Below, in pieces: positions 5,093 to 48,902 of a DNA stretch of 64,000 bases. The DNA comes from Nitrosopumilaceae archaeon (GTDB taxonomy: Archaea > Thermoproteota > Nitrososphaeria > Nitrososphaerales > Nitrosopumilaceae), in assembly GCA_965208905.1 (NCBI GenBank), contig OZ242365.1, forward strand, positions 1,408,001 to 1,472,000, given 5' to 3'. The notes under the pieces are model-generated. The model had not been told where the DNA came from, searched no databases, and saw only the letters and a program-made list of their open reading frames with translations. Made by a program: the position numbers and the translations under genes. Positions within the stretch are counted from its first letter, which is position 1; every line of letters begins with the position of its first letter.

Positions 5093-8118
<3,026 letters not shown>

Positions 8119-8204: not shown

Positions 8205-9770
<1,566 letters not shown>

Positions 9771-18562: not shown

Positions 18563-18566
18563 CAGT

Positions 18567-19778
18567 ATGTTTGGTTTTACATTTAAATCTAAAAATAAAA
18601 ATAAACCCAAGTCAAAATATCTCATTGAATTTAGATTCTCAGGTTATGCCAAACGCACCATCAAAGATCTACAATCAGCAATCTCAAGGAACTTTCCGAT
18701 TTCGTCTCGTAGAAGGTATGTGCCGCATATTACACTAGTCGGGCCGCTATACACCAGAGATGCCAAAAGGATGATCACCGAGGTTCAAAACGTGATCAAG
18801 CAGCAACGTACTACCCCCACATTCCAAATAGATGGTTTTGGTGTGTTCGAAGATAGGGCAATATTTGTTAAAATCACACCATCGCCGGAGTTGATCCAAC
18901 TACGCAAAGAGATCATAGAACGATTAGATGGATTTTGTGAACTAGGGGAGTATGATCGTGGTACGTACAATCCGCATGCTACACTACTACTGAATACAGA
19001 TTTACAAAAAGGTAGACAAGACTATCAATTCAACAAGATACTAAAGTATCTTGACAGTTGGAAGGTGCCAAGCATGAAACAAGGTGTGTTGCGTATAACA
19101 ATACTGAACAGTCATGGCAAGATCGCATGTGAATACGACCTGATACTCAAAAAACTTCTTGACCGTCAGGATGCACTTGATAGCGATATGCGCAAAAAAA
19201 CATTGGACCAATGGCGTAAGCAAAATTCCCCCATAACACAACAGTACTCGGATCCTGTTGTTGAGAATAACCGTACATTTGTGGTAAGTGATCTTCATTT
19301 TGACCATGACAACATAATACGATTCTGTAACCGGCCTTTCCAATCGGTACGCGATATGAACCAAACAATGGTAGACAACTGGAACAAGACTGTAGACTAC
19401 AATGACAGGGTTTACTATCTAGGTGACATGACCTATGGCCGGCAGAGGAGGCCCATTGATTTCTGGCTCTCAAAACTGAACGGAAATATCCTGTTTATAC
19501 GAGGTAACCACGACACCGATATCATCACAAGAGCGACTGTTTTAAAAGACAAGTTCCATATAATGTACAAAGAATATGAATTTCTATTGATGCATGATCC
19601 ATACAGACCAAAACACTATGACGGTTGGATCATTCATGGTGATAAGCACAACAATAGTCCTGATAAGTATCCACATGTTTGTTATGAAAACAAGACCATC
19701 AACGTATGTGCAGAGTTTACTGAATACACGCCCCTGAATCTAAATAACATAGTCACATCCATCACCGCTCGCAGATAG
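18567..19778 (+). CDS. 2H phosphoesterase (2'-5' RNA ligase family) fused to a calcineurin-like metallophosphoesterase
   Basis: Two HxT motifs (PHITL, PHATL); SDLHFDH, LGD, RGNHD, MH, IHGDKH. Confidence 0.88.
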   Translation: MFGFTFKSKNKNKPKSKYLIEFRFSGYAKRTIKDLQSAISRNFPISSRRRYVPHITLVGPLYTRDAKRMITEVQNVIKQQRTTPTFQIDGFGVFEDRAIFVKITPSPELIQLRKEIIERLDGFCELGEYDRGTYNPHATLLLNTDLQKGRQDYQFNKILKYLDSWKVPSMKQGVLRITILNSHGKIACEYDLILKKLLDRQDALDSDMRKKTLDQWRKQNSPITQQYSDPVVENNRTFVVSDLHFDHDNIIRFCNRPFQSVRDMNQTMVDNWNKTVDYNDRVYYLGDMTYGRQRRPIDFWLSKLNGNILFIRGNHDTDIITRATVLKDKFHIMYKEYEFLLMHDPYRPKHYDGWIIHGDKHNNSPDKYPHVCYENKTINVCAEFTEYTPLNLNNIVTSITARR

Positions 19779-20939: not shown

Positions 20940-20956
20940 CAAATAGGCAGGTTCAC

Positions 20957-22255
20957 ATGAATCCAAAACATAAAACAAAATTCAAGAAGGTGAAATGGCT
21001 CTTTGGCAGGGAGATTGAGATTCCAGAAGGATGGAAATGGGAAAAACTAGAAAATAATTCTACATTAAAGGGTAGAATTGGTTGGCAAGGATTAACAACT
21101 GCCGAATACCTAAAACATGGTAAGTATTATCTCGTAACAGGAACTGATTTTAAAAACGGTTCCATTTATTGGGAAAATTGTGTTTATGTAAATAAAGACC
21201 GTTACTCTCAAGATTCTAACATTCAACTAAAGAAAAATGATGTCTTAGTTACAAAAGATGGAACGATAGGAAAAGTTGCCTTTGTTTATATTCTTTCAAA
21301 ACCTGCAACACTAAACAGCGGAGTTTTTGTCATTCGTCCAATTAACAAAACGTATTTTCCTTTATTCCTATACTATGTTTTACGCTCAGATTATTTTGAG
21401 AAGTTTCTAGATAGACTCAAAGCAGGATCAACCATTAATCATCTATATCAAAAAGATTTTGTTAATTTTAAATTTCCGATCCCATCGAGATCAGAACAAA
21501 CCCGTATTGCATCAATCCTTGGCGGAGTTGATGCATGTATAGAGGCCACACAGAAAATAATTGAAAAATATGAGAGATTAAAGAAAGGCCTAATGCAGCA
21601 TCTTTTAAGTCACGGGATTAATCATACCAAATTCAAAAAAGTGAAATGGTATTATAACAAAGAAATAAAAATTCCATATAAGTGGGAGTGGAGTGAATTG
21701 GGTAACGAAGGGAGCCTTTCTTCAGGTGCCACACCTAAACGCGATCACCCTAAATATTACAATGGTAATATTTTATGGGTTTCAAGTGGAGAATTAAATT
21801 ACAATTTAATTACAACGACTAACGAATTAATAACTGTCCTCGGTCTACAAAAAACTAATTTAAAAATTCACTCAGAAGGTACTTTTCTTTTTGCAATTAC
21901 TGGATTAGAAGCAAGAGGAACGAGAGGGCGGTGCGCAATCTTGGGAAGACCTGCCACTATTAACCAATCCTGTATGGCTTTTTATAATTCTTCATTAGAT
22001 GTTAAATTTTTATTTTACTATTTTTTAGCATTTGGAGAAAAAATTATTTTTGCAACAGCACAAGGAACAAAACAACAAAGTTTAAATTTAGAAATATCTA
22101 AGAAAATCAAAATTCCTATTCCGTCTTTCTCAGAACAACAAAAGATTGCATCAATCCTGTCAGGAGTTGATGCAATTCAAAATCTGTTTTGGCCTATAAA
22201 AATATGTGTAGGATTAGTAATGTTTTTAATACTTTTAAGAGTAGTAAAACTATGA
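20957..22255 (+). CDS. hsdS: Type I R-M specificity subunit, copy 1 (two TRDs, C-terminal conserved helix missing)
   Basis: IPEGW, EQTRIASIL...LKKGLMQHLL, second TRD ending EQQKIASILSGVDA, then an unrelated tail. Confidence 0.9.
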   Translation: MNPKHKTKFKKVKWLFGREIEIPEGWKWEKLENNSTLKGRIGWQGLTTAEYLKHGKYYLVTGTDFKNGSIYWENCVYVNKDRYSQDSNIQLKKNDVLVTKDGTIGKVAFVYILSKPATLNSGVFVIRPINKTYFPLFLYYVLRSDYFEKFLDRLKAGSTINHLYQKDFVNFKFPIPSRSEQTRIASILGGVDACIEATQKIIEKYERLKKGLMQHLLSHGINHTKFKKVKWYYNKEIKIPYKWEWSELGNEGSLSSGATPKRDHPKYYNGNILWVSSGELNYNLITTTNELITVLGLQKTNLKIHSEGTFLFAITGLEARGTRGRCAILGRPATINQSCMAFYNSSLDVKFLFYYFLAFGEKIIFATAQGTKQQSLNLEISKKIKIPIPSFSEQQKIASILSGVDAIQNLFWPIKICVGLVMFLILLRVVKL

Positions 22256-22464
22256 GTACAATCGTACAGAAAAAGACGTATGCAGTGATAATTGCAAAAG
22301 ATCTTGAAGAAGGAGGATTTGTCGGTACGTGTGATGAACTGCATGCAGTTTCAGAAGGAGATACATTTGGGGAGATCGTAGAAAATATGAAAGAAGCAAT
22401 GGAGTTAGCGGCCGAAGAATCTGGAAATCCAACTAACTTCAATATGTTAGTAGTAGAATGCTAA
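22252..22464 (+). CDS. hicB: HicB-family antitoxin (short form)
   Basis: YAVII...GGFVG...SEGDTFGEIVENMKEAMEL; ATGA overlap with the hsdS stop. Confidence 0.85.
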   Translation: MSTIVQKKTYAVIIAKDLEEGGFVGTCDELHAVSEGDTFGEIVENMKEAMELAAEESGNPTNFNMLVVEC

Positions 22465-22700
22465 TGTCAAAGTTTCCAAGTGTGTCAGGTAATCAAATGA
22501 CAAAATATCTTCAAAGTAAGGGGTTCGCCATAACAAAGAGAAGAGGAAGTCATGTAACATTAAGATACAAAAATATTTTTACAGTTATACCTTTGGGTAG
22601 TAAAAGGCTGAAGATCAGAACTCAGTTTTCCATACTACTGTATGCTGGTATTAGTAAAGAAGAATTTGTTAATGACTATGACAGTGGGCTGGTAGCATAA
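22464..22700 (+). CDS. hicA: HicA-family toxin
   Basis: KFPSVSG...L..KGF...RRGSH motif; overlaps the hicB stop. Confidence 0.88.
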   Translation: MSKFPSVSGNQMTKYLQSKGFAITKRRGSHVTLRYKNIFTVIPLGSKRLKIRTQFSILLYAGISKEEFVNDYDSGLVA

Positions 22701-22757
22701 AGTAGCTGATAACTCTCACTTGCAAGTAGAAATAGAAACTTTTCGATTAATCTATAC

Positions 22758-23678
22758 ATGTCCAAACACACAAATCAAAGAAGTATGATGCTGTTTGAAG
22801 AATCAATAAAATCAAAATACACCAAGCAGAATTACATATCACATCTAAACCAATTCAAAAAGTTTAGCGGTATATCTAATGTAGATCATTGGCTGAATAT
22901 TCCATCAAATGAACTACAAACTGTACTAGAAGATTATGTCATATACTTAAAGCATACTACGAGCCCAAACTCTATCCCATCAAAGCTTAGGGGCATAAGA
23001 CATTTTTTTGTGATGAACCGAATTAAGCTTGACTGGGACATAATTTGTAAGATGTTCCCTCCTAAACAAAAAACTTCTACTTTGAGAGCATACACCACAG
23101 GAGAGGTACAAAAGATGCTTTTGCATACCAAGAACTCAAGAGATAAAGCTCTAATTCACTTCCTGGCATCAACCGGAGCAAGAATCGGAGTGTTTGATCA
23201 CCCGTTGTTAATAAAACATAGACAAAAAATGCCATCAAATTGCACTGCGTTTCTGTTTTATGCAGGAACTGTTGAAGAATATTGGTCATTTCTCACACCG
23301 CAGGCAACTAAGATACTTGATGTCTATCACAACATACGTAAACGCGACGGTGAAACTTTTAAGCCAGACACTCCCATATTTGTAACATCAAAACATAATT
23401 CAACTCAGCTTAGTTGGAGTGGTGCACGCTCTGTAATATATAGAAATATTTCTAAAACCACAATAAGACTCAAGCATGGTAATCGTTTTAACGTTCAAGC
23501 AGACCATGGATTTAGAAAAAGATTTAACACCATACTTAAGATGGATAATTCTGTAAACCATAATATAGCAGAAAAATTAATGGGGCATAAAAATGGTCTA
23601 GATGGGGTATATTTTACTCCGTCGCTGGAAGAATTATTTACAGAATTTAAAAAGGTTATAAATCGATTGCAGATCTAA
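22758..23678 (+). CDS. Tyrosine recombinase (site-specific invertase/integrase)
   Basis: Catalytic R (STGARIG), HxxR (HGFRKR), H (LMGH), Y (GVYF). Confidence 0.93.
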   Translation: MSKHTNQRSMMLFEESIKSKYTKQNYISHLNQFKKFSGISNVDHWLNIPSNELQTVLEDYVIYLKHTTSPNSIPSKLRGIRHFFVMNRIKLDWDIICKMFPPKQKTSTLRAYTTGEVQKMLLHTKNSRDKALIHFLASTGARIGVFDHPLLIKHRQKMPSNCTAFLFYAGTVEEYWSFLTPQATKILDVYHNIRKRDGETFKPDTPIFVTSKHNSTQLSWSGARSVIYRNISKTTIRLKHGNRFNVQADHGFRKRFNTILKMDNSVNHNIAEKLMGHKNGLDGVYFTPSLEELFTEFKKVINRLQI

Positions 23679-23700
23679 CTGTGTCGATGAAAATGTGTAA

Positions 23701-25014
23701 TTATATTTTTACTCTAATTTTTCCAGTGAGGAGCTTCTGCATCAATCCTTTCTTTAGACGTTCTAATTTTTTCTTATATTCCTGATTCTTCTGAATGTAT
23801 GCATCAACTCCTGACAGAATTGATGCAATCTTGGTTTGTTCATCTATTTCAGGTATAGGAATTATAAAATTTCTTAGATCTTTTTGTGTGAATAAAGGAA
23901 CTGTAGTACCAGATGTAAATGCTTTACAATATGTTTGAAATGGTTTTGATTTGAAGAACCAATAGAGGAATTCTGGTTTTAACGATTTATCATGCACTCG
24001 AACTGTAACAACATGTGAATTGACTGTAGTTGGTTCTGGAAGTTTTTTTACAAATCCAATTCTTCCAATGTCTCCATCTTTTGCAACTAATACATCTCCA
24101 TTTTGCAATTGAATTTCTGGAGATTCAGAATATCTAAATTGACTCAATCGTTTAATACCTTGTGTAAAATTAATTCCATATAGGATATCTACTAAACTCC
24201 AAACAGATAGCATCAAGAAACCTGATTCAACGTATTCGTCAGAGCGAAGATTTTTCCATCCAATTCTCCCGTGTACTGTGGCAAATATATTCAATCTAGA
24301 TAACTGCCAATCTACAGGAATTTTATAATCTATAAAATGCCTTCCGAAAGTTATCTTTTTGAACTTTATGTGACCAATACCTCTAGTCAGAAGCTGTTGC
24401 ATCAAACCCCTCTTCAGACGTTCTGTTTTCTCTATTACCTTCTGCGTGGATTCAATACATGCGTCAACTCCGCCAAGGATTGATGCAATCTGAACTTGTT
24501 CTGGAAGTGGAGGTATAGGCATAAGTGAATTAGAAACAACGGTACTTGTAATCGCAGGATACGCCATTCCTTCCATTTGTCTAAAATAATTTTCATGAAA
24601 ATAATGACTCTGACAATAATTAAAAAGAAAATGTGGATGACAAGCAGATTTGGATCTTAGAACTGCAAATCCCGTAGAACAAACTATATTTGATTTATCT
24701 ATACTTATTAAAGAAAATGCTTTCAGATATGGGCGCACCAATGATATGATGACATCATCTACTCTTACAATCCTCTGAGCTCTACTAGGACGTTCATATA
24801 ACTGAAATTTTTCTAATTTTGTTGTTTGAAAATTCTTGATGGCTGAGATATCAATATAATCAATTTCATCAAATCTGTAGTCGTTTTGAATCTGTTCAGG
24901 ATTGATTTTTGCAATATCCTGTATGCACAACAGTCTCCACTCTTCTGGAATCTCAATCTCCTTTCCAAAGAGCCATTTTACTTTTTTAAAACTATTGTTC
25001 AGTTTTGTATTCAT
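23701..25014 (-). CDS. hsdS: Type I R-M specificity subunit, copy 2 (complete, downstream of hsdM)
   Basis: Two TRDs, central and C-terminal conserved helices ending LKKGLMQKLLTGKIRV. Confidence 0.95.
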   Translation of the reverse strand: MNTKLNNSFKKVKWLFGKEIEIPEEWRLLCIQDIAKINPEQIQNDYRFDEIDYIDISAIKNFQTTKLEKFQLYERPSRAQRIVRVDDVIISLVRPYLKAFSLISIDKSNIVCSTGFAVLRSKSACHPHFLFNYCQSHYFHENYFRQMEGMAYPAITSTVVSNSLMPIPPLPEQVQIASILGGVDACIESTQKVIEKTERLKRGLMQQLLTRGIGHIKFKKITFGRHFIDYKIPVDWQLSRLNIFATVHGRIGWKNLRSDEYVESGFLMLSVWSLVDILYGINFTQGIKRLSQFRYSESPEIQLQNGDVLVAKDGDIGRIGFVKKLPEPTTVNSHVVTVRVHDKSLKPEFLYWFFKSKPFQTYCKAFTSGTTVPLFTQKDLRNFIIPIPEIDEQTKIASILSGVDAYIQKNQEYKKKLERLKKGLMQKLLTGKIRVKI

Positions 25015-25034
25015 ATGGCCCCCACTACTACAAT

Positions 25035-37440: not shown

Positions 37441-38352
37441 TCACCTCAAGAGCAGCCCTGTTATGTATTCGGCTGCCTTGTATGGATTTGAATCTCCTGC
37501 TCTGATTAAATCCACCTGCTGCGCAACACGATCGTCTTTTTGAGCCATATGGTTCAGCTTTCCATATAGGTTACTTAAAATTATATCCACAAGTTCGGCC
37601 TTTATTCTGTACTCTTGCCTCTCTTGTGAGTCCATATTGGAGTGTAACGCCTCTTGTATTATACGTGATAGCTCATCTATGCCCTCGTTGTTCTTTACGG
37701 ATGTCAGTAACACATGTGGGTTGCGGTCAGACTCACCTATAAAATCTCGCACAGCATCAAAGAGTGCAGCACTTCCAGGCAGATCAGACTTGTTCACTAC
37801 GCAGATATCGCCTATCTCAGTAATTCCCGCCTTTATCGTCTGTATGCTATCGCCGGTATGTGGATTAAACACCACTACAGTTACGTCGGCCAAATCTGAA
37901 ATGTCCACCTCTGTCTGGCCAGCACCCACACTCTCTACTATTATAGGATCAAAACGAGCATACTCTAATACGCGTATGCTGTTTCTCAGAGACCCAGAGA
38001 CGGCCCCGGTGGCCCCCCGGGATGCCAGACTACGTATATACACACCCGAATCTGTTGATTCGGTCATACGGACACGATCTCCTAGTATGGCGCCACCGGT
38101 TATATGACTTGTTGGGTCGACTGCCAATACGGCAGGCTTGCAGCCTGATTTTGACAGGCGTACAGTCAGCTGGTTTATCAGTGAACTCTTTCCGGCCCCC
38201 GCAGGGCCTGTGATACCCACTATGCCCGCATCTCCTGTATGCGGGAATATCTCTTGAAGGAATTTTTGGGCCTGTACTGGGTCATTCTCGACCAAAGATA
38301 TGGCCCGGGCCACACTTCTACGGTGACCGTTGCGCAACCTCTCTAAATCCAT
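37441..38352 (-). CDS. meaB: Methylmalonyl-CoA mutase-associated GTPase
   Basis: GPAGAGKS, DPTS...GGAILGDRVRM, ESVGAGQ, NKSD. Confidence 0.93.
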   Translation of the reverse strand: MDLERLRNGHRRSVARAISLVENDPVQAQKFLQEIFPHTGDAGIVGITGPAGAGKSSLINQLTVRLSKSGCKPAVLAVDPTSHITGGAILGDRVRMTESTDSGVYIRSLASRGATGAVSGSLRNSIRVLEYARFDPIIVESVGAGQTEVDISDLADVTVVVFNPHTGDSIQTIKAGITEIGDICVVNKSDLPGSAALFDAVRDFIGESDRNPHVLLTSVKNNEGIDELSRIIQEALHSNMDSQERQEYRIKAELVDIILSNLYGKLNHMAQKDDRVAQQVDLIRAGDSNPYKAAEYITGLLLR

Positions 38353-38782
38353 ATCTAACTGCTATACGTCAGGTAATAAATTCTTGATTGTTTCATTGAT
38401 TTATCGAAGGATGAGCCGGGGATTACATACACAGGCTTCCCTGACAAAAAAATCATACATTCAAGTCACAAACTGCTAAAAGCATACCATCTTTGCCCCT
38501 GCGCAATGTCGGTCAGGGCACTGCCGTCGCGCGGCACGTCCATTATCATAACATACTGCTCCTCCTCGGTGACCCGCTGGAAGCATACGGTTACATCTAC
38601 CTGTTCTTTTCAGACGTGCTGTGGCTGGGCTCGTGGGGCAGGCCGCGGTGGCTGGGGATGGTCCGACCCTCGCCGTTGATGTCCAGTGTCGTGTTTTTAG
38701 CGTCAATTTCAGCTGGATCGACACAAAGAACGTGAATACTCCAAACATAATCTTAATATCTATAGTTGAATACAACGTATGC

Positions 38783-39721
38783 GTGAAATTTCTATGGGTG
38801 GTTGCAGGAGTGTTGTGCGTGATGATGACCGGGCTGGGCGTAGGCTGGGCCGAGCACCAACTAGTGCCAGAAGGTTTGAGCGATGAGGAGTTGGAACGCT
38901 TTGAACAAAGAGCTGCCATGCCAGATGCATCTGGTCATATTGAAGGCGAGTATGGTGACTGTCTGTTGAGTTTCGTCAGTTCTTCCATCTTTGACCAGAA
39001 CTCCATGGTCGACATATCTATGAATTGTAAATTTGGTTATGGCGGCGGAGGAGGCGGAGGAGGCGATGAGCGGTTCTACCACAATCTGCTGAGACCGAAC
39101 TTCCACGGCCCCCCGTCCAACTCGTTCGCTTGGGAACAGGACAGTGTAGAGTATTGCGACCTGCAAGCAACCAACAAGGCGCGCTATCCAGGACACGGCC
39201 CTACCACACTGACGATTGTCATCAACTGTTGGTGGGAGGATGAGGTGACAGTCCTCAATGCCACCATAGATGACCGCCCCATTGAAAAGTTGGCAGCGGA
39301 TGCTACCCATGCCGTATTCGGCGTGGTGACGCGAGTTGACACCGTCCTGTACAACGCGACCACAATCAACGGAACCGCGATTAACGGAACCGAATCGGTC
39401 CGCGAGACGATCTTCACCGATGTGACTATTGTCATCAATGAGGACCTAAAAGGTGCCTATAATGACACGTTGATGACGCTTCGATTCGAGGGCGGCGCCA
39501 TGGACAGCTTGAGGATAATCAACCCCGTGGCTCCGCAGTTTGAATTGGGTGAGTACGTGTTCGTTCTAGTGGGCGAGCCGGATGAGGAGGGATACTACCC
39601 AATAATAGGCCAGGTCAACGGCAAGTACACAATTGAGGGTGAAAGCGCCAGAACGACCCACTATGAGCGGTTCACCACGGTCAATGCGTTGCGGACCCTG
39701 TTCGCCGAGGAGCAACCCTGA
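38783..39721 (+). CDS. Secreted hypothetical protein with poly-Gly tract (GC-rich)
   Basis: GTG start, signal peptide KFLWVVAGVLCVMMTGLGVGWA, G8 tract, C-terminal domain with VFGVVT...GG...PQFELGE. Confidence 0.65.
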   Translation: MKFLWVVAGVLCVMMTGLGVGWAEHQLVPEGLSDEELERFEQRAAMPDASGHIEGEYGDCLLSFVSSSIFDQNSMVDISMNCKFGYGGGGGGGGDERFYHNLLRPNFHGPPSNSFAWEQDSVEYCDLQATNKARYPGHGPTTLTIVINCWWEDEVTVLNATIDDRPIEKLAADATHAVFGVVTRVDTVLYNATTINGTAINGTESVRETIFTDVTIVINEDLKGAYNDTLMTLRFEGGAMDSLRIINPVAPQFELGEYVFVLVGEPDEEGYYPIIGQVNGKYTIEGESARTTHYERFTTVNALRTLFAEEQP

Positions 39722-40104
39722 TTGGGCTGACTGACACCGTGCCATACTAAGTTTTAATGTAGCCGTCCAACACGGAGCTGGGTAGAAATGGTGACCTACC
39801 ACATGTCTGGGTAATTTGTGACCTAGAGTGGGTAAAATGTGACCCAGAGTGGAAACTGGGGTCTGGTTGTTTTGTAGATATTTTCTACGTGGAGTGGAAA
39901 TGAGGTCAGATTTTTGGAGTAGAGATTGGGGTCGTATACCTACATTGCCAGCCCAAGTTAGCTTTTATCGGCAGTTTATTTGTTACCCTAGAATGTTATG
40001 ACAGTCCACCCATCATTAAACATGAATGCTAGATATGGGAACCAATAACCATCGTTTATGTCGATATGATTAACCATGTGTAAGACACCAAATAGGCGTA
40101 GAGT

Positions 40105-40827
40105 CTAACTATTATACCTACACTCGTTACTCAGCTTACAGTTATTGCAACCGGGATCCTGCTTTGTACACACATCCAAACCGTGATAATAGAGGGGCCG
40201 ATCTATCTTCCATGGATTATCAGGTTCTATTTGGCTGGCTAATTCCTGAGCTCTAGTCACAGATATCTCACCATCACCATCAAATACCCTTCCAAGCACA
40301 CGTTTTGTGTTAATGTCCGCCTTTATTCTACCGCGCTCCTCCCTAATATGACCCGTATCTTCAAGTGCACCTCTAATCATGTCGGAGATATCATTCCCAG
40401 CTCGGATGTACCGCAAACGCCGTACTATTTCATCTGAAGACTGCTCCTTCCATATGTTCCGGGCATCCCCATCATACTCTTCTACAATGCTGTGGGCAAT
40501 CCTCAATACCCGTACTGGTACCTTATTGACGAACCGGTGTAGTGAATGTTTTGTAAAAGTGTGTATCATCCAATCTTCGGTTTTACCGGTTATTATGTTC
40601 CATAGGTTGTCTGGATCTCCTAGTATCTCTTCTGTGAATATTCTGGCATTCTCCCATGCCCTATTTGCGGGAATCTGATAGTCTATAATTGCACCAAACA
40701 TGAACTTGTTGGCCTCTTTTTTGGTTGCCGGTCTGTCCAGTGGGAGCCATGGCCATCCTACTTCCGGCCTCTCCTCACCTCCCGACATTTCCCGAAGTAT
40801 ATCTCTGACTCGGTTGTACTTTGTCAT
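40105..40827 (-). CDS. HhH-GPD/endonuclease III-like DNA glycosylase with 4Fe-4S motif
   Basis: IDYQIPANRAW, LHRF, ADINTKRV..R, C-terminal CxxxxPxCxxCxLxxxC. Confidence 0.8.
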   Translation of the reverse strand: MTKYNRVRDILREMSGGEERPEVGWPWLPLDRPATKKEANKFMFGAIIDYQIPANRAWENARIFTEEILGDPDNLWNIITGKTEDWMIHTFTKHSLHRFVNKVPVRVLRIAHSIVEEYDGDARNIWKEQSSDEIVRRLRYIRAGNDISDMIRGALEDTGHIREERGRIKADINTKRVLGRVFDGDGEISVTRAQELASQIEPDNPWKIDRPLYYHGLDVCTKQDPGCNNCKLSNECRYNS

Positions 40828-40963
40828 GTTCCCATTAATTATAACATCCTGTAAAAATACATTTGTGCAATAAATGTATAGAGAACTCTTGACTTGGGTA
40901 GAAATAGATGTGGCCGACTATTATTTCCACATGGTGTTTTGTATGTCATCCCCGAGTAATCCA

Positions 40964-42007
40964 TCAATCACCATTTGTCAAACGACGCGGAGTCGTATCA
41001 ATCGACTTGGCTTCAGGTAGCTCATCTATTGTAGCACCAGCCTGTGCTAGCTTCTCGGCTGCCGGCATCAACCGAGAATCCCAAGATCCAACACTATCAT
41101 TGTAGTTTTTTATGGCCTTGCCTAATGCATCACCGGTCTTAACATAATGTTTGCCAAATGTGTTCAACTTGCTGTATAATTCCGCAGAGAGTTTGCCTAT
41201 ATCCTTCACAGTATCGGCCATCTCATTCTGTTTCCATATTATATTAACTGCACGTAACAACACCATGAGTACGGACTGTGTGGCTAGCACCACCTTGTTT
41301 CCCCAAGCATACTCTGTTAGTTTACTATCTTTTTCCAGTGCAGGTAGTAGGGCATATTCTGGCATTACCAATATGACACATTCCAACGACTCATTACCCT
41401 TCCAGTATTCTTTGTTGGATAGTGACCTAATGTGACCCTTAACAGCCTTGACATGCTCGTCCATATAGTATGATTTGTGGTTCTCATCCTCCGCGGCGAT
41501 GGACTTTTGTAGTGCATCCAATGGGGCCTTTGAATCCAGTATTACGTTACGATTGTCTGGTAGATGGACAATAAAATCAAGCCTCCCAGCATCCGTCGTA
41601 TGTTGAGTGTTGTAGTGCTTACCCTTCTCAAATCCGGACATCTGAAGTACTTTCTCTATAGTTATCTCGGAATATTGGCCACGCTTCTGTGAGCTTGTCA
41701 GCACCTCGGATATGTCCTTGGTACTTTTTACTAATTCAGTGGTCACCTGTTTGTTTTCTGCATACTGTCCTACGATTTTCTCCATACGTTCGTCAAGCTT
41801 ATTCATCATCTCGCTTAGAGGTTCAAGCATTGGGTCTGTTGCCTCCTTCGTCAGTGCCGGAAGGTCCTCGGTTTTTATTTTCAGTGTGGTGGATAGTCTA
41901 TCACATTCCCTGTTTATTTTATCATATTTTTTTCGCAGCCGGTAATATGCTAGAAATAATATCGCTGCGATAACTACCATCACGCCAAACGCACCCTCAA
42001 ATGCCAT
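40964..42007 (-). CDS. rmuC: DNA recombination protein RmuC
   Basis: N-terminal TM, coiled coil, KRG..SE, DFIVHLP...ILDSKAPL, HIRSLS.KEYW, YN.SVGS. Confidence 0.9.
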   Translation of the reverse strand: MAFEGAFGVMVVIAAILFLAYYRLRKKYDKINRECDRLSTTLKIKTEDLPALTKEATDPMLEPLSEMMNKLDERMEKIVGQYAENKQVTTELVKSTKDISEVLTSSQKRGQYSEITIEKVLQMSGFEKGKHYNTQHTTDAGRLDFIVHLPDNRNVILDSKAPLDALQKSIAAEDENHKSYYMDEHVKAVKGHIRSLSNKEYWKGNESLECVILVMPEYALLPALEKDSKLTEYAWGNKVVLATQSVLMVLLRAVNIIWKQNEMADTVKDIGKLSAELYSKLNTFGKHYVKTGDALGKAIKNYNDSVGSWDSRLMPAAEKLAQAGATIDELPEAKSIDTTPRRLTNGD

Positions 42008-42087
42008 GATAATATCATATTATGTGTGTATAAAAAAGATCTAACAACCACAGAATGACACATAGGGTCTATATGACATCATATCTG

Positions 42088-42190
42088 TGTAATGTAGTAG
42101 GAATTGCACAGGGTATCTGGGAGCCATGCCCGGCATTCTACGGGATGTAGGTGAAGCGGTGATGTAACACCAGACTATTTCTACAGTATT
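42088..42190 (+). other. Isolated copy of 23S rRNA helices 76-78 (L1 stalk)
   Basis: Ungapped match to the reverse complement of ~5807-5909; 46-nt identical core at 42103-42148. Confidence 0.9.
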
Positions 42191-42650
42191 CTTGTACATA
42201 ATCCCCCAACACTACTCTAGGTCACAAATTACCCAGACATGTGGTAGGTCACCATTTCTACCCAGCTCCTGTGTCCGCGATCAAAGTACCTTTCAGTCTC
42301 CCGATCCGGCTCACCCTGCCCCACCATATGGGTGCGGGCGGCCGGCATCGAACGACACGGGAAGCAGGAGGTGGCGGTTCTGGCCTTCTTGAAGTAATAA
42401 AATCATTATGAACTTTTTCATTCCAGTATTGGTAATCATATTACTCCCCCGGTTACTGGCGACTAGACAGGCGACCAGCAGCAACATCATAAAACTGAAT
42501 GGCGAGCATGCCAACAGTATACACGGTAGTTCTGTGAACTGAAGCATATAATTCTGAGTCACATACATCTTGAAATTGACAAAATTCAAGCCAAAAGACT
42601 CAACGTTGTTACAGATAGCTCATAGTACAATCTGCTCTTCGATGGTACGC

Positions 42651-43037
42651 TTATGGTCTGACAAATATAATGTCAGCCTGTGGTTGACCCAAATCTCGAA
42701 ACTCGGTCTTGAGTGTTATGTTGCCTAGCGTATCGTGTGTAATGTGTAGCAGTATGGGGTGAACGCCCCAACCATACTGTGGTGGCGCACCAAAGTGTAT
42801 ACTGTCAGTAAAGTTGTATGAATCATAAGTTCTAAAGAACGTCTCCTTCATCCCCTGTATCTCCATTGAAACCTGATGCGTGCCTCTGGACTTGTCTGTA
42901 AACTGCACCTCTACTGTGGAGCCATCGTATGTGGCATATACATCAAAGTCTGATGTGTACTCTGTATCGTTGGACGGCAATAACATAACTATCAAAAGAG
43001 CAATTACAGGTATAATCAACAGTATCTTTTTTGTCAA
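42651..43037 (-). CDS. Hypothetical membrane-anchored/secreted protein
   Basis: N-terminal hydrophobic helix; overlaps the aminopeptidase stop. Confidence 0.7.
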   Translation of the reverse strand: MTKKILLIIPVIALLIVMLLPSNDTEYTSDFDVYATYDGSTVEVQFTDKSRGTHQVSMEIQGMKETFFRTYDSYNFTDSIHFGAPPQYGWGVHPILLHITHDTLGNITLKTEFRDLGQPQADIIFVRP

Positions 43038-45553
43038 TGCAATATATCTTGCGCAGCTTGCCGACGAAAGTTCGAGTACATCTTGGTCAAATCCAATAGG
43101 TGTCTAACTGACCTATTTATACTGTCTATGCCTCTCTGCTTGAAGAATGTATCCATCTCTTTGTATTCGGAGCCATCCGTAGCCAACGCAAGACCAGACA
43201 CAATTCGTCCCAGCAGTCCGCTTTCAATGCCTACCTTTGAGCTCACCGCGTCCCAATTGTCGCGAAGCCACGGCCACAACAAGCCTCGACTGTTTGGGTT
43301 GGATGCTGTATGTATGATAAAACTATGAACGTTTTGTGGTCGAACCTTATTGCTTATGGAAAAGTCTAATGTGCGCCTTAGTATGTCTGGCGTGTTAAAT
43401 TCACACAACCCCACGACTATACGCATCTGCTCTTCTGCAGAGTCTGTATTTGTAAACAGTCTTGATAGTTTTGAGTGTATGCGGATATTACCATGACGGG
43501 CCACGGCTGCAAACATGGGATTTCGTATGTCGGGATGAACCGTGTTTGGATCATCAACATATGCATCAAACATGTCAGCGGTCTTGGTAGATATCTCTCT
43601 GTCCAGACGCCCCATGGACATTATGGCCATTGTTCGCAGAAACGAATCTGTATGGGGCTCGTTTTGCAGAGGCTTCCAGCCAAGCCAGCCCAGCATACCC
43701 TCAAATATTGGAGTGGATACATCATGTATCTTTTTACTCCAATCTTGCATATGTGACATCTTCAAAAGCAGTGATAGGTTTTCGCCAACATTTATCAGCG
43801 GCATATATTGCCTTTCGTCAGTATATGCGTCCACCAAGTCTAGGTAGTCCAATATGCTGGCCTTACCAACCATGCACATTGCAAAGAGATCATTTTGTAT
43901 GGACCAACGATCCATGCTGACTATTGTCTTCCTCCGAATCGACTTTTTGATATTAGCAAGAACATCTCCCTGATACAATACACGATAAAAGCCCATACGT
44001 TTGGGATTCACGATAAATTTGCCTGACAGTTTTATCTCTCCTGTCTCTGCCTCCATCAGGAAGCGCTTGTTGGTGTATTTGCTTTTAATTATAATTGGTA
44101 TGGGCCATGTATCAGGTTTGGTTGACTGTTTATGCGCCCGGAATGGATGTTGAGTAAGTTTGACTATACCTTGCTCCTGGGTTACGTGTACCATCGGGAA
44201 ACCACTGATATTCAGCCATGGCTCCATTATTTTACGTACCGATACATCTGTAATGTCTCTCTGCGCTCGTTTAGAAATTCCACCCTTTATGGAATTTTGT
44301 ACTGATCTGTCAATCGAGTCCCATAGGTCAAGACCAGTGGCATTTTGAAACTGAAAGTCTCTGATGTATAACCTCAATCCGTCTCTGAATGGTATTTTTC
44401 CCACGTAATCTTCTATCATGCGCAACAGGCTGCCGCCTTTTTCATATGAGATTGCATCAAAGATCTCTCGAATCTGCGCTGGAGACCTCACCTTTACATC
44501 TATGGGATGGGTGGATGGCAAAGAGTCCATCTCCATTGCAGTTTTTGATGAACTATTAACAAACTGATCCCATAGATTCCAGGTTGGGTACAACCAATCC
44601 AGGGCTTTTGTAGCCATAAACGTCGCAAAACTCTCATTTAACCACAAGTCATTCCACCACTTCATTGTGACTAGATTGCCAAACCACTGATGGGCTAGTT
44701 CGTGCGAGACTACCTCTGCCACTAACTGTTTTGTGCTACTTGAGGAGTTCGCCTCATCGTATAACAAGAGATTCTCCCTAAATGTCATAGCTCCCCAGTT
44801 CTCCATTGCTCCAGAACCAAAGTCTGGTAGAGCTATCAGATCTAATTTTGGTAACTGGTAAAATTTTGCAAAGTACTGCTCATATAACGGTATGAGTCTC
44901 TCTGTCAACTCTAGAGCAAATTTACCATGTTCTGACTTTCCAGCAGTCGTCACTACGCGGACTCTACCGTTGCCATTCAAATACTCGAACTCACCGACTC
45001 CCAGATATACTAGATATGTGGACATCTTTGGAGTCGTCTCAAAGACAAACATCTGACCATTACTCGAATCGTCTGTGTACTTAACAGGCATATTTGAGAT
45101 GGCAGTCATACCTTTTGGCGCAAATATAGATATGTCAAATGTGGCTTTGAGGTCTGGTCTATCAAAACATGGAAAGGCGCGCCGGGCATCGGCAGCCTCA
45201 AACTGCGATGTCGCCAAATACTTTGTTTTGTTGCCAACCTTGTATGAACCCTTATAAAATCCGATTAACTTGTCGTTCAATACCCCCTTATACTTGATGG
45301 TCAGTGTACAGCCATCATTGATTGTATGGTGCGTATTTATCACCATCTGACCATCATTTATGGCATATGTGGGTTGAACCTCTATGCCATCTATATTGCA
45401 TGAACACGATTCGATAGTTATGTCCTCAATGTCCAGCCTTATAGTATATGTGGGTTGAATACAGGTGATGGTTATCTCGGCCACACCATCAAATACAAAA
45501 TTTTTAAAGTCTGGAATGAACTCCAACTTGTAATTTTGCGGTATCGTCTTCAA
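43034..45553 (-). CDS. M1-family zinc aminopeptidase
   Basis: GAMENWG, HELAHQW...LWLNESFA, AISYEKG. Confidence 0.96.
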   Translation of the reverse strand: MKTIPQNYKLEFIPDFKNFVFDGVAEITITCIQPTYTIRLDIEDITIESCSCNIDGIEVQPTYAINDGQMVINTHHTINDGCTLTIKYKGVLNDKLIGFYKGSYKVGNKTKYLATSQFEAADARRAFPCFDRPDLKATFDISIFAPKGMTAISNMPVKYTDDSSNGQMFVFETTPKMSTYLVYLGVGEFEYLNGNGRVRVVTTAGKSEHGKFALELTERLIPLYEQYFAKFYQLPKLDLIALPDFGSGAMENWGAMTFRENLLLYDEANSSSSTKQLVAEVVSHELAHQWFGNLVTMKWWNDLWLNESFATFMATKALDWLYPTWNLWDQFVNSSSKTAMEMDSLPSTHPIDVKVRSPAQIREIFDAISYEKGGSLLRMIEDYVGKIPFRDGLRLYIRDFQFQNATGLDLWDSIDRSVQNSIKGGISKRAQRDITDVSVRKIMEPWLNISGFPMVHVTQEQGIVKLTQHPFRAHKQSTKPDTWPIPIIIKSKYTNKRFLMEAETGEIKLSGKFIVNPKRMGFYRVLYQGDVLANIKKSIRRKTIVSMDRWSIQNDLFAMCMVGKASILDYLDLVDAYTDERQYMPLINVGENLSLLLKMSHMQDWSKKIHDVSTPIFEGMLGWLGWKPLQNEPHTDSFLRTMAIMSMGRLDREISTKTADMFDAYVDDPNTVHPDIRNPMFAAVARHGNIRIHSKLSRLFTNTDSAEEQMRIVVGLCEFNTPDILRRTLDFSISNKVRPQNVHSFIIHTASNPNSRGLLWPWLRDNWDAVSSKVGIESGLLGRIVSGLALATDGSEYKEMDTFFKQRGIDSINRSVRHLLDLTKMYSNFRRQAAQDILH

Positions 45554-47263: not shown

Positions 47264-48902
47264 GGGAATTATATACAAAAGTACAGCAGTCTTAACCGCC
47301 TACTTTTCGTTGGCTTTCACCATTCAGGGTGCGTGTGTTTGGCATGCGCTTTGGAAGCGCGGTCTTGACTACCTGCCAGTCTCCTACAACCGGTGGTGGC
47401 GTGCGGTTGCGTAGGCTTATTCGGTCCCTCAAGTCCGTCCCGGACTTGATGCATAAACGACTTGCCTTTTGGGCGCGTCTTGAGTTTGGTTTTATGTAAT
47501 CATAATTGTTGTTATAGTTGTTGTCTGGACTGTACATGATGTTGAATGCGCCGTTATAGTCGGCATGACATACAGTGCCGCAGTTCCGACACTTGAACTT
47601 TCTATCATGGTTCCACCTCTCATGTACAATTTCATTATTGTGCCAAATCTTGAATCCACCGTAGCGTTCGGTGTCCTTACTACAACATGCGCCACACCGT
47701 TTGGACGTATTGTAGGGTTTAACCTCTCTGATTTCCGTATTATGCTCAGGGGCTTTCTTTGTACACCAATCACGGACTTCACCGGCCTTACTCTCTTTTA
47801 GTGTGCGGTTCTTGCCTTTGGCGCAGTTGCCCCCCTTGCGGGTAAGATTCACCAAGTTGAGGTTCTCAAATTTTACCAAATCGCAGTCCACGCACAGTTC
47901 CTTGCAAAAGTGTCTGTACTTATTCAACTGCCAGTTGTATAGCGTTTTGCGCTGCCGTTTCATGCTGTCATTTATCTTATTCCATCTGTTGCTGTTATGT
48001 GTACATCTGTCACGTTCGGACTGGAGTTTTCTAATGTGCTTGCCTATTTCATCATTGTACAATTTAAGAAGGCGTGTAGTACCGTCCGACAGTGCCACAT
48101 ATGCTGTCAACTTGCCTATGTCAACACCCGCCGTCAACCCTGTTATCTTCCTGTCCGGGATGTACTTTTGTATTGTAAGGTGTAACTCAAACTGGCGGTG
48201 ACCGCGCCGTCTATCCGCATCACTCGTTATGTCAACAATCTTGTGTGACACTACGGTTTTGATGTTGGGTAGCCGCCCCTTCGTGATGCTGAACTGTGTG
48301 TCTGACTTGGGAAATGTGACCGTGTTGTGTTTGATTCGCTTTGGTGCACCAAGGAAGAATATCGGATATGTTTTACCGTCTTTGAGATGCGTACAGTCCT
48401 TCATTTCAATACCTGCCAGGATTGCACCGCGAATTAAGTGTAGTGGTGCGCATTCCTTGGGGTCGGTATTATCCCATTCTGCCATCATGCTTTTGGCAAC
48501 CGTAACGCATGTCAATGCGCTTCGGGGATACGGACTAGGACTACTGCTGGCAGTGAACTGCACGTTCAAGTTACGACACATAACACCTAGTTCAACCCAC
48601 ATACGGCTTTCGGCCTCCAGACTTTCAACATATGAGGTGATTATACTATTTGTCTTTAGGCGGTATTTGCGGGTTCTATAGATTATACTCTTCTTGGTCT
48701 GCATATCACATATTATGATATTTCAGATATAAAGTTACATACCTCATATTTACTATATGATATGTATAGTACAGTCCCGACCACATGCCAGTCTGTCAAA
48801 TTACGGCGCTGTTATACGGCATGCCAAACACACGCACCCTGAATGGCGAAAACCAACGAAAAATAGGCGGTTAAGCCTACTGTACTTTTGTAAGTAATTC
48901 CC
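47264..48902. mobile_element. TnpB element flanked by 84-bp imperfect inverted repeats (47264-47347 / 48819-48902)
   Basis: 77/84 identity by eye; both copies terminate in ...TAATTCCC. Confidence 0.75.
47292..48704 (-). CDS. tnpB: TnpB-like RNA-guided endonuclease
   Basis: RuvC-I GVDIG, RuvC-II FENL, Zn finger TSKRCGAC...FKCRNCG, RuvC-III HADYNGAFNI; no transposase adjacent. Confidence 0.85.
   Translation of the reverse strand: MQTKKSIIYRTRKYRLKTNSIITSYVESLEAESRMWVELGVMCRNLNVQFTASSSPSPYPRSALTCVTVAKSMMAEWDNTDPKECAPLHLIRGAILAGIEMKDCTHLKDGKTYPIFFLGAPKRIKHNTVTFPKSDTQFSITKGRLPNIKTVVSHKIVDITSDADRRRGHRQFELHLTIQKYIPDRKITGLTAGVDIGKLTAYVALSDGTTRLLKLYNDEIGKHIRKLQSERDRCTHNSNRWNKINDSMKRQRKTLYNWQLNKYRHFCKELCVDCDLVKFENLNLVNLTRKGGNCAKGKNRTLKESKAGEVRDWCTKKAPEHNTEIREVKPYNTSKRCGACCSKDTERYGGFKIWHNNEIVHERWNHDRKFKCRNCGTVCHADYNGAFNIMYSPDNNYNNNYDYIKPNSRRAQKASRLCIKSGTDLRDRISLRNRTPPPVVGDWQVVKTALPKRMPNTRTLNGESQRKVGG

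What the first reader, a model, noticed from the sequence alone, without database searches (positions are those of the whole stretch)
42088..42190. Stand-alone copy of the 23S rRNA L1 stalk with structure-preserving substitutions
Seen: about 100 nt align without gaps to this genome's own 23S (reverse complement of ~5807-5909), with identical blocks of 46 and 16 nt. The match covers essentially only helices 76-78. All differences in the closing helix keep pairing: copy AATGTAGTAGGAAT/ATTTCTACAGTATT vs rRNA AGTATAGTAAGGAT/CTTCTTGCAGTACT. The copy lies 24 nt inside the right 56-bp inverted repeat, divergent from rmuC. Known: this domain binds ribosomal protein uL1, and archaeal uL1 also binds mRNA mimics. 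Inference: either a captured fragment of a related organism's or ancestral 23S allele, or a selected ncRNA acting as a uL1 decoy, a regulator or a gene-conversion template for the single rRNA operon.
Basis: partly seen in the sequence, partly recalled or inferred. Interest (0 to 1): 0.8.

Follow-up and report, generated by a model that had tools for sequence, protein, structure and literature searches.

The report
Free-standing ribosomal L1-stalk copy beside rmuC
An ammonia-oxidising archaeon carries, on a small accessory DNA cassette next to a nuclease gene, an exact-domain extra copy of the ribosomal RNA arm that binds protein uL1 and grips tRNAs; its binding core is untouched and its stem is altered but still paired, so it may be a working small RNA, although expression is unproven.

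Summary
Window 42089-42192 (+) is a full-length copy of 23S helices 76-78. A covariance model built from 22 natural L1 stalks scores it 94.8 bits over positions 1-103 of 103; the genuine stalk at 5805-5908 (-) scores 113. It is the only rRNA-derived fragment in this 2.2-Mb genome.

The copy differs from the genome's 23S at 15 of 104 positions: 11 in the H76 stem, 4 in unpaired variable positions, none in H77/H78. Pairing is kept, 27 of 31 pairs in both. This is non-random, but only modestly (P 0.001-0.05, depending on the assumed ancestor).

No 23S in 166 family genomes matches the copy better than 89%. Three of its changes hit positions invariant in family 23S, so simple capture of a relative's allele is not supported.

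The copy lies in a 2.8-kb insertion that the nearest relative lacks. In a run from another study, a contig runs from rmuC into the copy.

Best reading (0.45): a retained structured RNA that presents a free uL1/tRNA-elbow binding site. Near rival (0.38): neutral cargo kept similar by gene conversion. Expression is untested. Earlier notes of this scan report stand-alone L1 stalks in phages and CPR bacteria.

The parts
42089..42192 (+). Stand-alone copy of the 23S L1-stalk domain (H76-H78), 104 nt
   Evidence: Covariance model R1 gives 94.8 bits over model positions 1-103 of 103. It is 88% identical to the genome's 23S. 27 of 31 consensus pairs form.
42089..42106 (+). H76 5' strand of the copy (18 nt), with 4 differences from the 23S
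   Evidence: Structure mapped from the Rfam LSU_rRNA_archaea alignment; differences tabulated.
42107..42174 (+). Core of the copy (junction, H77, H78 and their loops): 4 differences, all at unpaired variable positions (61, 70-72), and none in H77/H78 pairs
42175..42192 (+). H76 3' strand of the copy (18 nt), with 7 differences from the 23S
5805..5908 (-). The genuine L1 stalk inside the single 23S rRNA gene (5116-8090, minus strand)
   Evidence: Rfam RF02540 scores 2647 bits. R1 scores 113 bits.
40964..42007 (-). rmuC (347 aa), divergent from the copy; its start codon lies 81 nt from the copy
   Evidence: Pfam PF02646 7.6e-66. PADLOC RTasRmuC 1.7e-34.
40105..40827 (-). 240-aa HhH-GPD-like protein with a C-terminal four-cysteine cluster motif
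   Evidence: Weak NCBIfam hits below cut-off: TIGR03252 at 2.9e-10 and mutY at 1.6e-4. No Pfam hit.
39774..39829 (+). Left 56-nt inverted-repeat arm, made of GGGTA..TGTGACC iterons; the iteron array continues inward to about 39940
42214..42269 (-). Right 56-nt arm, 100% complementary to the left arm, beginning 21 nt after the copy
39777..42565 (.). Segment present in this genome and replaced by about 110 unrelated nt in the nearest relative G005
   Evidence: BLAST of the window against G005: homology covers 37500-39776 and 42566-44000 only.
42029..42037 (.). A/T-rich TATA-like box. On the minus strand it starts 30 nt before the rmuC ATG. On the plus strand it lies 52-60 nt before the copy.
   Evidence: Read from the sequence. 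Spacing compared with TATA-like boxes about 31-33 nt before this genome's tRNA genes. Inference only.
42069..42076 (+). Second TATA-like box (CTATATGA), 20 nt before the copy. If used, it would start the RNA near H76 position 10-12.
   Evidence: Inference only.

Best explanation
The element is a domain-exact duplicate of the L1 stalk. It was copied from a 23S gene of this same clade and is now carried just upstream of rmuC on a small accessory cassette.

I think it is most likely kept as a short structured RNA, transcribed on the plus strand divergently from rmuC. That RNA would fold like the ribosomal stalk and offer a free binding site for ribosomal protein uL1 and, through its two interdigitated T-loops, possibly for tRNA elbows. 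In effect it would be a decoy or sensor that acts off the ribosome.

Shown: the domain is complete. Its protein- and tRNA-contacting core is letter-for-letter that of the genome's own 23S. The stem has changed at 11 positions and still pairs. The element is accessory and sits beside rmuC in a second organism.

Inferred: that it is transcribed, that it binds uL1 or tRNA, and that it has any link to the neighbouring nuclease and glycosylase-like genes.
For: 1. Domain-exact ends. Similarity starts 1 nt before H76 and stops within 2 nt of its end, and the 40 nt downstream match in register at only 4 of 40. A random fragment would rarely be cut this way.

2. Distribution of differences. 11 of the 15 lie in the 36 stem positions (hypergeometric P 0.0012; Fisher P 0.002). 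The longest identical run is 46 nt (simulation P 0.001).

3. Pairing. H76 keeps 15 of 18 pairs despite 11 changes (simulation P 0.02). Three single changes (G-C to G-U twice, A-U to G-U once) keep pairing only on the rRNA-sense strand.

4. Changes arose after the copy left the rRNA. A6, G95 and C104 are invariant in 22 distinct natural family stalks, are changed in the copy, and each change keeps its pair.

5. No natural 23S stalk of the 35 compared has more stem than core differences by such a margin; the copy has 11 against 4.

6. Uniqueness. It is the only rRNA-derived fragment in the genome.

7. Second organism. In run X8, from another study, one contig runs from rmuC through the spacer 42 nt into the copy, and another covers 42101-42184 with 4 differences.

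8. Established knowledge. L1 binds the same kind of target on rRNA and on its own mRNA (abstract of PMC2175363). The L1 stalk, RNase P and T-box RNAs all grip the tRNA elbow with interdigitated T-loops (passages of PMC4810234).
Against: - No transcription evidence of any kind. The runs laid were contigs, so they say nothing about RNA starts, ends or strand.
- No convincing promoter or terminator. The nearer TATA-like box would start the RNA inside H76, and the first run of five T lies about 220 nt downstream.
- The stem is weaker than in the rRNA. The canonical fold scores -9.9 against -19.2 kcal/mol. The minimum-energy fold at 37 C loses the lower stem, and with 40-nt flanks H76 is not predicted at all. 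The fold z-score is -0.24.
- Against the most favourable natural ancestor (H76 of the G009 type plus the genome's own core), the statistics drop to P 0.05 for pairing and P 0.045 for distribution.
- Distribution is very narrow. No second copy was found in 400 other family genomes or 150 other order genomes, and none beside five other rmuC homologues.
- In X8 the copy (4 of 84 differences) is no better conserved than the adjacent rmuC 5' stretch (36 of 643).
Confidence: 0.45

Rival explanations
1. Neutral cargo or relic. A piece of 23S DNA (or cDNA) was caught in the spacer upstream of rmuC in an ancestor of the cassette. It has no function. Occasional gene conversion from the resident 23S keeps the middle identical while the edges drift, and the stem pairing that remains is partly luck.
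For: - The identical middle with diverged edges is what short conversion tracts would give.
- Significance falls to about 0.05 under the most favourable ancestor.
- The stem is thermodynamically degraded.
- No promoter, terminator or expression evidence was found.
- The copy is absent from all 400 family and 150 order representatives searched.
- It sits in a hypervariable spot that differs even from the nearest relative.
- In-register identity in the 40 nt upstream is 16 of 40, which may be a decayed longer fragment.
Against: - Conversion does not explain why similarity ends at the base of H76 on both sides.
- The four core differences (positions 61, 70-72) sit between the two identical blocks and have not been converted.
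- Changes at family-invariant stem positions all keep their pair.
- It is the only rRNA fragment in the genome.
- It is kept next to rmuC in a cassette that is 6-11% diverged.
Confidence: 0.38
2. Unaltered capture of a foreign 23S allele. The differences, including the compensatory ones, evolved inside a functional 23S of an unsampled relative, and the fragment arrived with the cassette by horizontal transfer.
For: - The cassette is accessory and shared among related organisms.
- The AGGAAT/TTTCT state of the upper stem occurs in the natural 23S of five genus members: G001, G002, G003, G006 and G009.
Against: - No 23S in 166 matching family genomes is more than 89% identical to the copy.
- 0 hits for two copy-specific patterns in the metagenome and viral collections.
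- The copy changes three positions invariant in 22 natural stalks.
- It combines the clade-specific core of G000, G005 and G008 with a stem more divergent than in any family 23S examined.
Confidence: 0.06
3. The element works on the minus strand or at the DNA level. One form is an antisense-to-23S leader read through from the upstream minus-strand genes into rmuC. Another is a homology patch for recombination with the rRNA operon.
For: - All neighbouring genes (aminopeptidase, the 128-aa ORF, rmuC, the 240-aa ORF) are on the minus strand.
- 46 nt and 16 nt of perfect complementarity to the 23S would exist in a minus-strand RNA.
Against: - The TATA-like box 30 nt before the rmuC ATG predicts a nearly leaderless mRNA that excludes the element.
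- Four G-U pairs in the stem would be A-C mismatches on the minus strand.
- The minus-strand fold is weak, z -0.87.
- The 52-aa minus-strand ORF is equally open in the antisense of the real 23S, and the differences in its frame are mostly amino-acid-changing (7 residues), so it is a by-product.
- The copy is inverted relative to the 23S, so crossing-over would split the only 23S gene (inference).
Confidence: 0.07
4. Assembly artefact: a chimeric join through the shared 46-nt block.
For: De Bruijn contigs break at the shared block.
Against: - In run X1, contigs bridge both junctions with no differences (39900-42124 and 42105-42269).
- In X8, from another study, a contig bridges the left junction.
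- The copy differs from the 23S at 15 positions, so it is not a mis-placed rRNA read.
- Caveat: X1 may be the sample the genome was assembled from, so it is not independent.
Confidence: 0.02

Closest known systems
L1 stalk of archaeal 23S rRNA (H76-H78; Rfam RF02540, about model positions 2196-2299)
   Same: Same sequence family, same length, and the same 31-pair consensus fold. The H77/H78 pairs and all loops are identical apart from 4 variable unpaired positions.
   Different: It is not part of an rRNA gene. It stands alone 36 kb from the operon, in inverted orientation, on an accessory cassette. Its stem carries changes at positions that are invariant in the family's rRNAs.
uL1 autoregulatory mRNA sites (archaeal L1 operon mRNA; bacterial L11-operon leader)
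   Same: Both are an RNA outside the ribosome that presents the uL1 binding determinant of the 23S. L1 binds the same kind of target on rRNA and mRNA (abstract of PMC2175363).
   Different: By my recollection, those sites are short partial mimics lying within the uL1 operon mRNA. This is the whole domain. It lies 1.43 Mb from the single uL1 gene and is not in any ribosomal-protein transcript.
Interdigitated T-loop elbow binders (RNase P J11/12-J12/13, T-box stem I distal platform)
   Same: They use the same structural motif as the L1 stalk to grip tRNA elbows (PMC4810234, passages read). A free L1 stalk could do the same.
   Different: Those RNAs converged on the motif. This one is a direct sequence copy of rRNA, and tRNA binding is not tested.
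Stand-alone L1-stalk RNAs noted earlier by this scan in large phages and CPR bacteria (e1-5917807, e1-6165052, e1-6024874, e1-842590, e1-4912343, e1-1083937)
   Same: A free-standing copy of H76-H78 away from any rRNA gene.
   Different: Those are bacterial or phage elements, often part of longer ncRNAs, and reported as conserved across several lineages. This one is archaeal and bare. It was seen fully in one genome, with contig evidence in one further run. Those notes are unchecked AI notes and I did not test them.
rRNA GTPase-centre fragment as cargo on a mobile cassette (earlier scan note e1-1481734)
   Same: An rRNA protein-binding domain of about 100 nt sits alone on a small cassette with inverted ends.
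   Different: It is a different rRNA domain. That case was judged to be non-functional cargo, and I did not test that note.

Membership tests
23S rRNA L1-stalk domain (H76-H78) | Sequence-plus-structure match over the whole domain | tested here: met
   Model R1 (22 natural stalks with the Rfam structure) scores 94.8 bits at E 8e-23 over positions 1-103 of 103. The genuine stalk scores 113 bits.
23S rRNA L1-stalk domain (H76-H78) | Consensus base pairs can form | tested here: met
   27 of 31 pairs form in the copy and 27 of 31 in the genome's 23S. H76 has 15 of 18 in both.
Functional 23S rRNA gene | Embedded in a complete LSU rRNA | tested here: not met
   Rfam at gathering threshold finds one LSU only, at 5116-8090. 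The E-value search of 41950-42350 finds none. The flanks are unrelated to the 23S: 4 of 40 in-register matches downstream.
uL1 autoregulatory mRNA mimic | Lies in the mRNA of the uL1 operon | tested here: not met
   The single Ribosomal_L1 gene is at genome position 18032-18601, and the copy is at 1450089.
uL1 autoregulatory mRNA mimic | Binds uL1 | not testable with these tools
   Only inferred from letter identity of the H77/H78 core with the 23S.
Neutral rRNA pseudo-fragment | Differences spread at random and pairs decay | tested here: inconclusive
   Measured against the genome's 23S: P 0.001-0.03. Measured against the most favourable natural ancestor: P 0.045-0.05.
Independent ncRNA gene | Own promoter, defined ends, transcript detected | not testable with these tools
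   Only contigs were laid. The TATA-like boxes at 42029-42037 and 42069-42076 are inference. No terminator-like site was found (a bacterial-type scan).
Independent ncRNA gene | Conserved with covariation in other genomes | tested here: inconclusive
   Only G000 of 401 family genomes and only G000 of 151 order genomes (both counts include G000) have an unequal second copy. One further copy is seen only as contig pieces in run X8, and its letters were not available to me.
Inverted-repeat-bounded mobile cassette | Terminal inverted repeats | tested here: met
   Arms of 56 nt, 100% complementary. A related pair lies at genome 1903198-1903252 / 1905217-1905272.
Inverted-repeat-bounded mobile cassette | Presence/absence polymorphism with ends at the repeats | tested here: inconclusive
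   The segment is absent in G005. The left break lies at 39776/39777, at the outer end of the left arm. The right break lies at 42566, about 296 nt beyond the right arm. In X8 the sequence to the right of the copy differs.
Inverted-repeat-bounded mobile cassette | Transposase or recombinase, and a target-site duplication | tested here: not met
   The two enclosed genes are rmuC and an HhH-GPD-like gene. I saw no direct duplication at the ends.

The most novel reading that the evidence does not exclude
Free L1-stalk RNAs form a real and so far undescribed class of small RNAs that also exists in Archaea. In this case one rides on a mobile rmuC/glycosylase cassette of ammonia-oxidising archaea. 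With uL1, it would form an off-ribosome particle that binds tRNA elbows or titrates uL1. That would couple the state of translation, or infection, to the neighbouring DNA-cutting genes.
Probability: 0.25. Interest if true: 0.8.

Novelty: new variant of a known kind. Interest (0 to 1): 0.55.

Why it matters
If the element is expressed, it would be an archaeal case of a ribosomal RNA domain re-used as a free RNA. It would be a natural uL1 or tRNA-elbow decoy moving on accessory DNA.

That would link with the stand-alone L1 stalks this scan noted in phages and CPR bacteria. It would suggest a general trick for tapping into translation.

If it is neutral cargo, it remains a clean example of how rRNA pieces get caught on cassettes. 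It also shows how gene conversion can imitate selection on structure, which is useful as a caution for covariation-based RNA discovery.

Tried and rejected
**Searches and tests that led nowhere**

- Rfam E-value search of 41950-42350 found no local LSU hit.
- Two copy-specific patterns found 0 hits in metagenome contigs and 0 in viral contigs. These scans need exact matches and cover only those collections.
- BLAST of 39700-42700 against the phage and plasmid collections gave no match.
- RmuC and the 240-aa protein found no relatives in viral contigs.
- RmuC in genome contigs found only G009 (record OZ220738.1, a Nitrosopumilaceae MAG), at 75% identity. That locus shares only rmuC with the window and has no L1 copy.
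- RmuC at E <= 1e-40 occurs in 6 of 401 family genomes, G000 included. Model R1 with filters off, run on five other rmuC loci and four control loci, gave nothing better than E 0.58.
- The 52-aa minus-strand ORF 42041-42199 is rejected as a gene. The same frame is open in the antisense of the real 23S, and seven residues differ.
- The sigma-70 promoter and intrinsic-terminator scan does not apply to archaea. I use none of its hits.
- Thermodynamic folding neither supports nor excludes the fold. Even the genuine stalk's H77 and outer H78 pairs are not predicted.

**Limits of the read data**

- Run X5 has cassette pieces at 90-95% identity but no cover over 42078-42198. Run X10 has no cassette cover. 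These gaps prove nothing.
- Read from its loose end, the lower 3' stem in X8 could still pair at 6 of 7 positions with this genome's 5' strand. X8's own 5' strand was not visible to me, so I give this no weight.
- The 23S-like piece in X8 (record 19) may come from another organism in that run, so I could not compare X8's copy with its own 23S.

**Literature**

- Searches for 'L1 stalk' + mimic + 'non-coding RNA' (22 papers, 15 listed), 'L1 stalk'/stand-alone/rRNA-like (21 papers, 10 listed) and '23S rRNA gene fragment' showed no title or abstract describing a free-standing L1-stalk RNA gene.
- This covers the held library only. I saw search listings only, plus passages of PMC4810234 and the abstract of PMC2175363.
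- Supplements were not consulted.

Full report
**What is there**

The window comes from a 2.21-Mb single-contig archaeal genome. It has one rRNA operon: 23S at 5116-8090 and 16S at 8237-9707, both on the minus strand. A relative's record title places the family as Nitrosopumilaceae.

Window 42088-42190 aligns without gaps to the reverse complement of 5809-5909 at 88% identity. Mapping onto Rfam's archaeal LSU structure shows that the match is helices 76-78, the L1 stalk.

I built a covariance model from 22 distinct natural L1 stalks of the family, using that structure. It aligns 42089-42192 to all 103 model positions at 94.8 bits. The genuine stalk scores 113 bits.

A BLAST of the whole operon against the genome finds no other rRNA-derived fragment.

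**How the copy differs from the 23S**

Over 104 nt there are 15 differences:
- 11 lie in the 36 positions of the H76 stem.
- 4 lie at unpaired positions that also vary among natural rRNAs (61, 70-72).
- None lies in the H77/H78 pairs or the conserved loops.

The copy and the 23S each form 27 of 31 consensus pairs, and H76 has 15 of 18 in both.

Two stem pairs changed on both sides (G-C to A-U; A-U to G-C). Five changed on one side and stayed paired. One mismatch became a pair. One pair at the base broke.

In simulations that start from the genome's 23S:
- Keeping this many pairs has P 0.02-0.03.
- The crowding of differences in H76 has P 0.001.
- A 46-nt identical run has P 0.001.

If I instead assume the most favourable natural ancestor (the upper-stem state seen in G009 and four other genus members, plus this genome's core), 11 differences remain. 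The two tests then fall to P 0.05 and 0.045. The pattern is therefore non-random, but not overwhelmingly so.

**Where the copy came from**

Its 46-nt core is the allele shared by this genome, G005 and G008. Other genus members differ there.

No 23S among the 166 of 401 family genomes with a match is more than 89% identical to the copy. Two copy-specific patterns found nothing in the metagenome or viral collections.

Three of the copy's stem changes hit positions that are invariant in all 22 natural stalks. None of 35 natural 23S stalks shows its ratio of 11 stem to 4 core differences.

So the fragment was not simply lifted from a relative's working rRNA. It derives from this clade's 23S and then changed in place, mainly in the stem.

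**Context**

The copy lies 81 nt from the start of rmuC (40964-42007, minus strand; Pfam 7.6e-66; PADLOC RT-associated RmuC 1.7e-34) and in the opposite orientation. Downstream of rmuC is a 240-aa HhH-GPD-like gene.

Perfect 56-nt inverted arms made of short iterons bound the pair. A related arm pair elsewhere in the genome flanks an unrelated 438-aa gene.

In the nearest relative G005, whose flanks are 93% and 96% identical, the segment 39777-42565 is replaced by about 110 unrelated nt. The left break falls at the outer end of the left arm. The right break falls about 296 nt beyond the right arm.

RmuC itself is rare in the family: 6 of 401 genomes, this one included.

The single uL1 gene is 1.43 Mb away.

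**Read support and a second copy**

In run X1, which may be the source sample, contigs bridge both junctions without a difference.

In run X8, from another study and carrying another organism label:
- One contig covers 40367-41407 (113 differences) and 41488-42130 (36 differences). It runs from rmuC through the spacer 42 nt into the copy.
- Another contig covers 42101-42184 with 4 differences and then continues into different sequence.

The copy is therefore linked to rmuC in at least one more organism, but not to the right inverted arm.

No second copy exists in 400 other family genomes or 150 other order genomes. The genomes with 2-3 equal-scoring hits have several rRNA operons.

**Interpretation**

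Three features are what one expects of an RNA kept for its fold and its uL1/tRNA-contacting surface:
- ends that coincide with the base of H76;
- an untouched binding core beside a changed but still paired stem;
- changes at rRNA-invariant positions that keep pairing, and only on the sense strand.

L1 is known to bind the same kind of target on rRNA and on mRNA (abstract of PMC2175363). The L1 stalk grips tRNA elbows with a motif shared with RNase P and T-box RNAs (PMC4810234).

Several points weigh against this reading:
- There is no transcription evidence.
- No clear archaeal promoter or terminator was found.
- The stem is weakened.
- The distribution is very narrow.
- Conservation in X8 is no better than that of the adjoining coding sequence.

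Gene conversion from the resident 23S could keep the middle identical without any function, although it does not explain the domain-exact ends.

I put the functional-RNA reading at 0.45 and neutral cargo at 0.38. Minor rivals are a minus-strand or DNA-level role (0.07), an unaltered foreign allele (0.06) and an assembly artefact (0.02).

**Comparison and novelty**

The element is a member of the L1-stalk sequence family, but not of an rRNA gene. It fails the defining location test for a uL1 autoregulatory mRNA site.

My three literature searches of the held library showed no description of free-standing L1-stalk RNA genes.

Earlier notes of this scan report such elements in large phages and CPR bacteria, and an rRNA GTPase-centre fragment as cassette cargo. 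I did not test those notes. They served only as leads.

Noticed in passing
window 39774-39940 and 42214-42269; genome 1903198-1903540 and 1905106-1905272 (L022:5199-7273): A family of iteron arrays (GGGTA..TGTGACC units about 21 nt apart, with further GGAAA..GGGGTC-like units). It occurs as two inverted pairs, each enclosing about 2-2.4 kb of non-mobility genes. The strict motif occurs 12 times, only at these two loci, and degenerate copies lie at about six other places. G005 lacks the second enclosed region too. Their nature (protein-binding sites, cassette ends or origin-like boxes) is open.
   Followed up: partly
window 42086-42110: In the copy, the bases just before and in the lower 5' stem can pair with the top of the same strand (about 7-8 pairs). 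This gives an alternative hairpin that the genuine 23S cannot form. It wins in the minimum-energy fold at 37 C.
   Followed up: no
window 42270-42565: A stretch specific to this genome, between the right arm and the point where homology to G005 resumes. Part of it (about 42270-42390) looks unusually G+C-rich by eye. There is no Rfam hit and no repeat elsewhere in the genome.
   Followed up: no
window 20954-25017: Nested inverted repeats (148, 82, 63 and 42 nt) in a low-GC stretch (0.33-0.34). An earlier first-reader note (e1-6365944) reads these as an hsdS shufflon.
   Followed up: no
window 47264-47363 and 48803-48902: A 100-nt inverted repeat, 86% complementary, with 1.4 kb between the arms.
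   Followed up: no
window 42095-42134 in run X1: The 40-nt contig shared by the copy and the 23S has depth 44.8, against 6.6-8.5 for the flanks. That is more than two single-copy loci would give, so other organisms or RNA in that run probably contribute.
   Followed up: no
window 40964-42007: The archaeal RmuC's best match in PADLOC is the RT-associated RmuC of DRT systems (1.7e-34), yet no reverse transcriptase is in the cassette. Such an enzyme in an ancestor could have made a cDNA of a protected rRNA fragment, but this is pure speculation.
   Followed up: no
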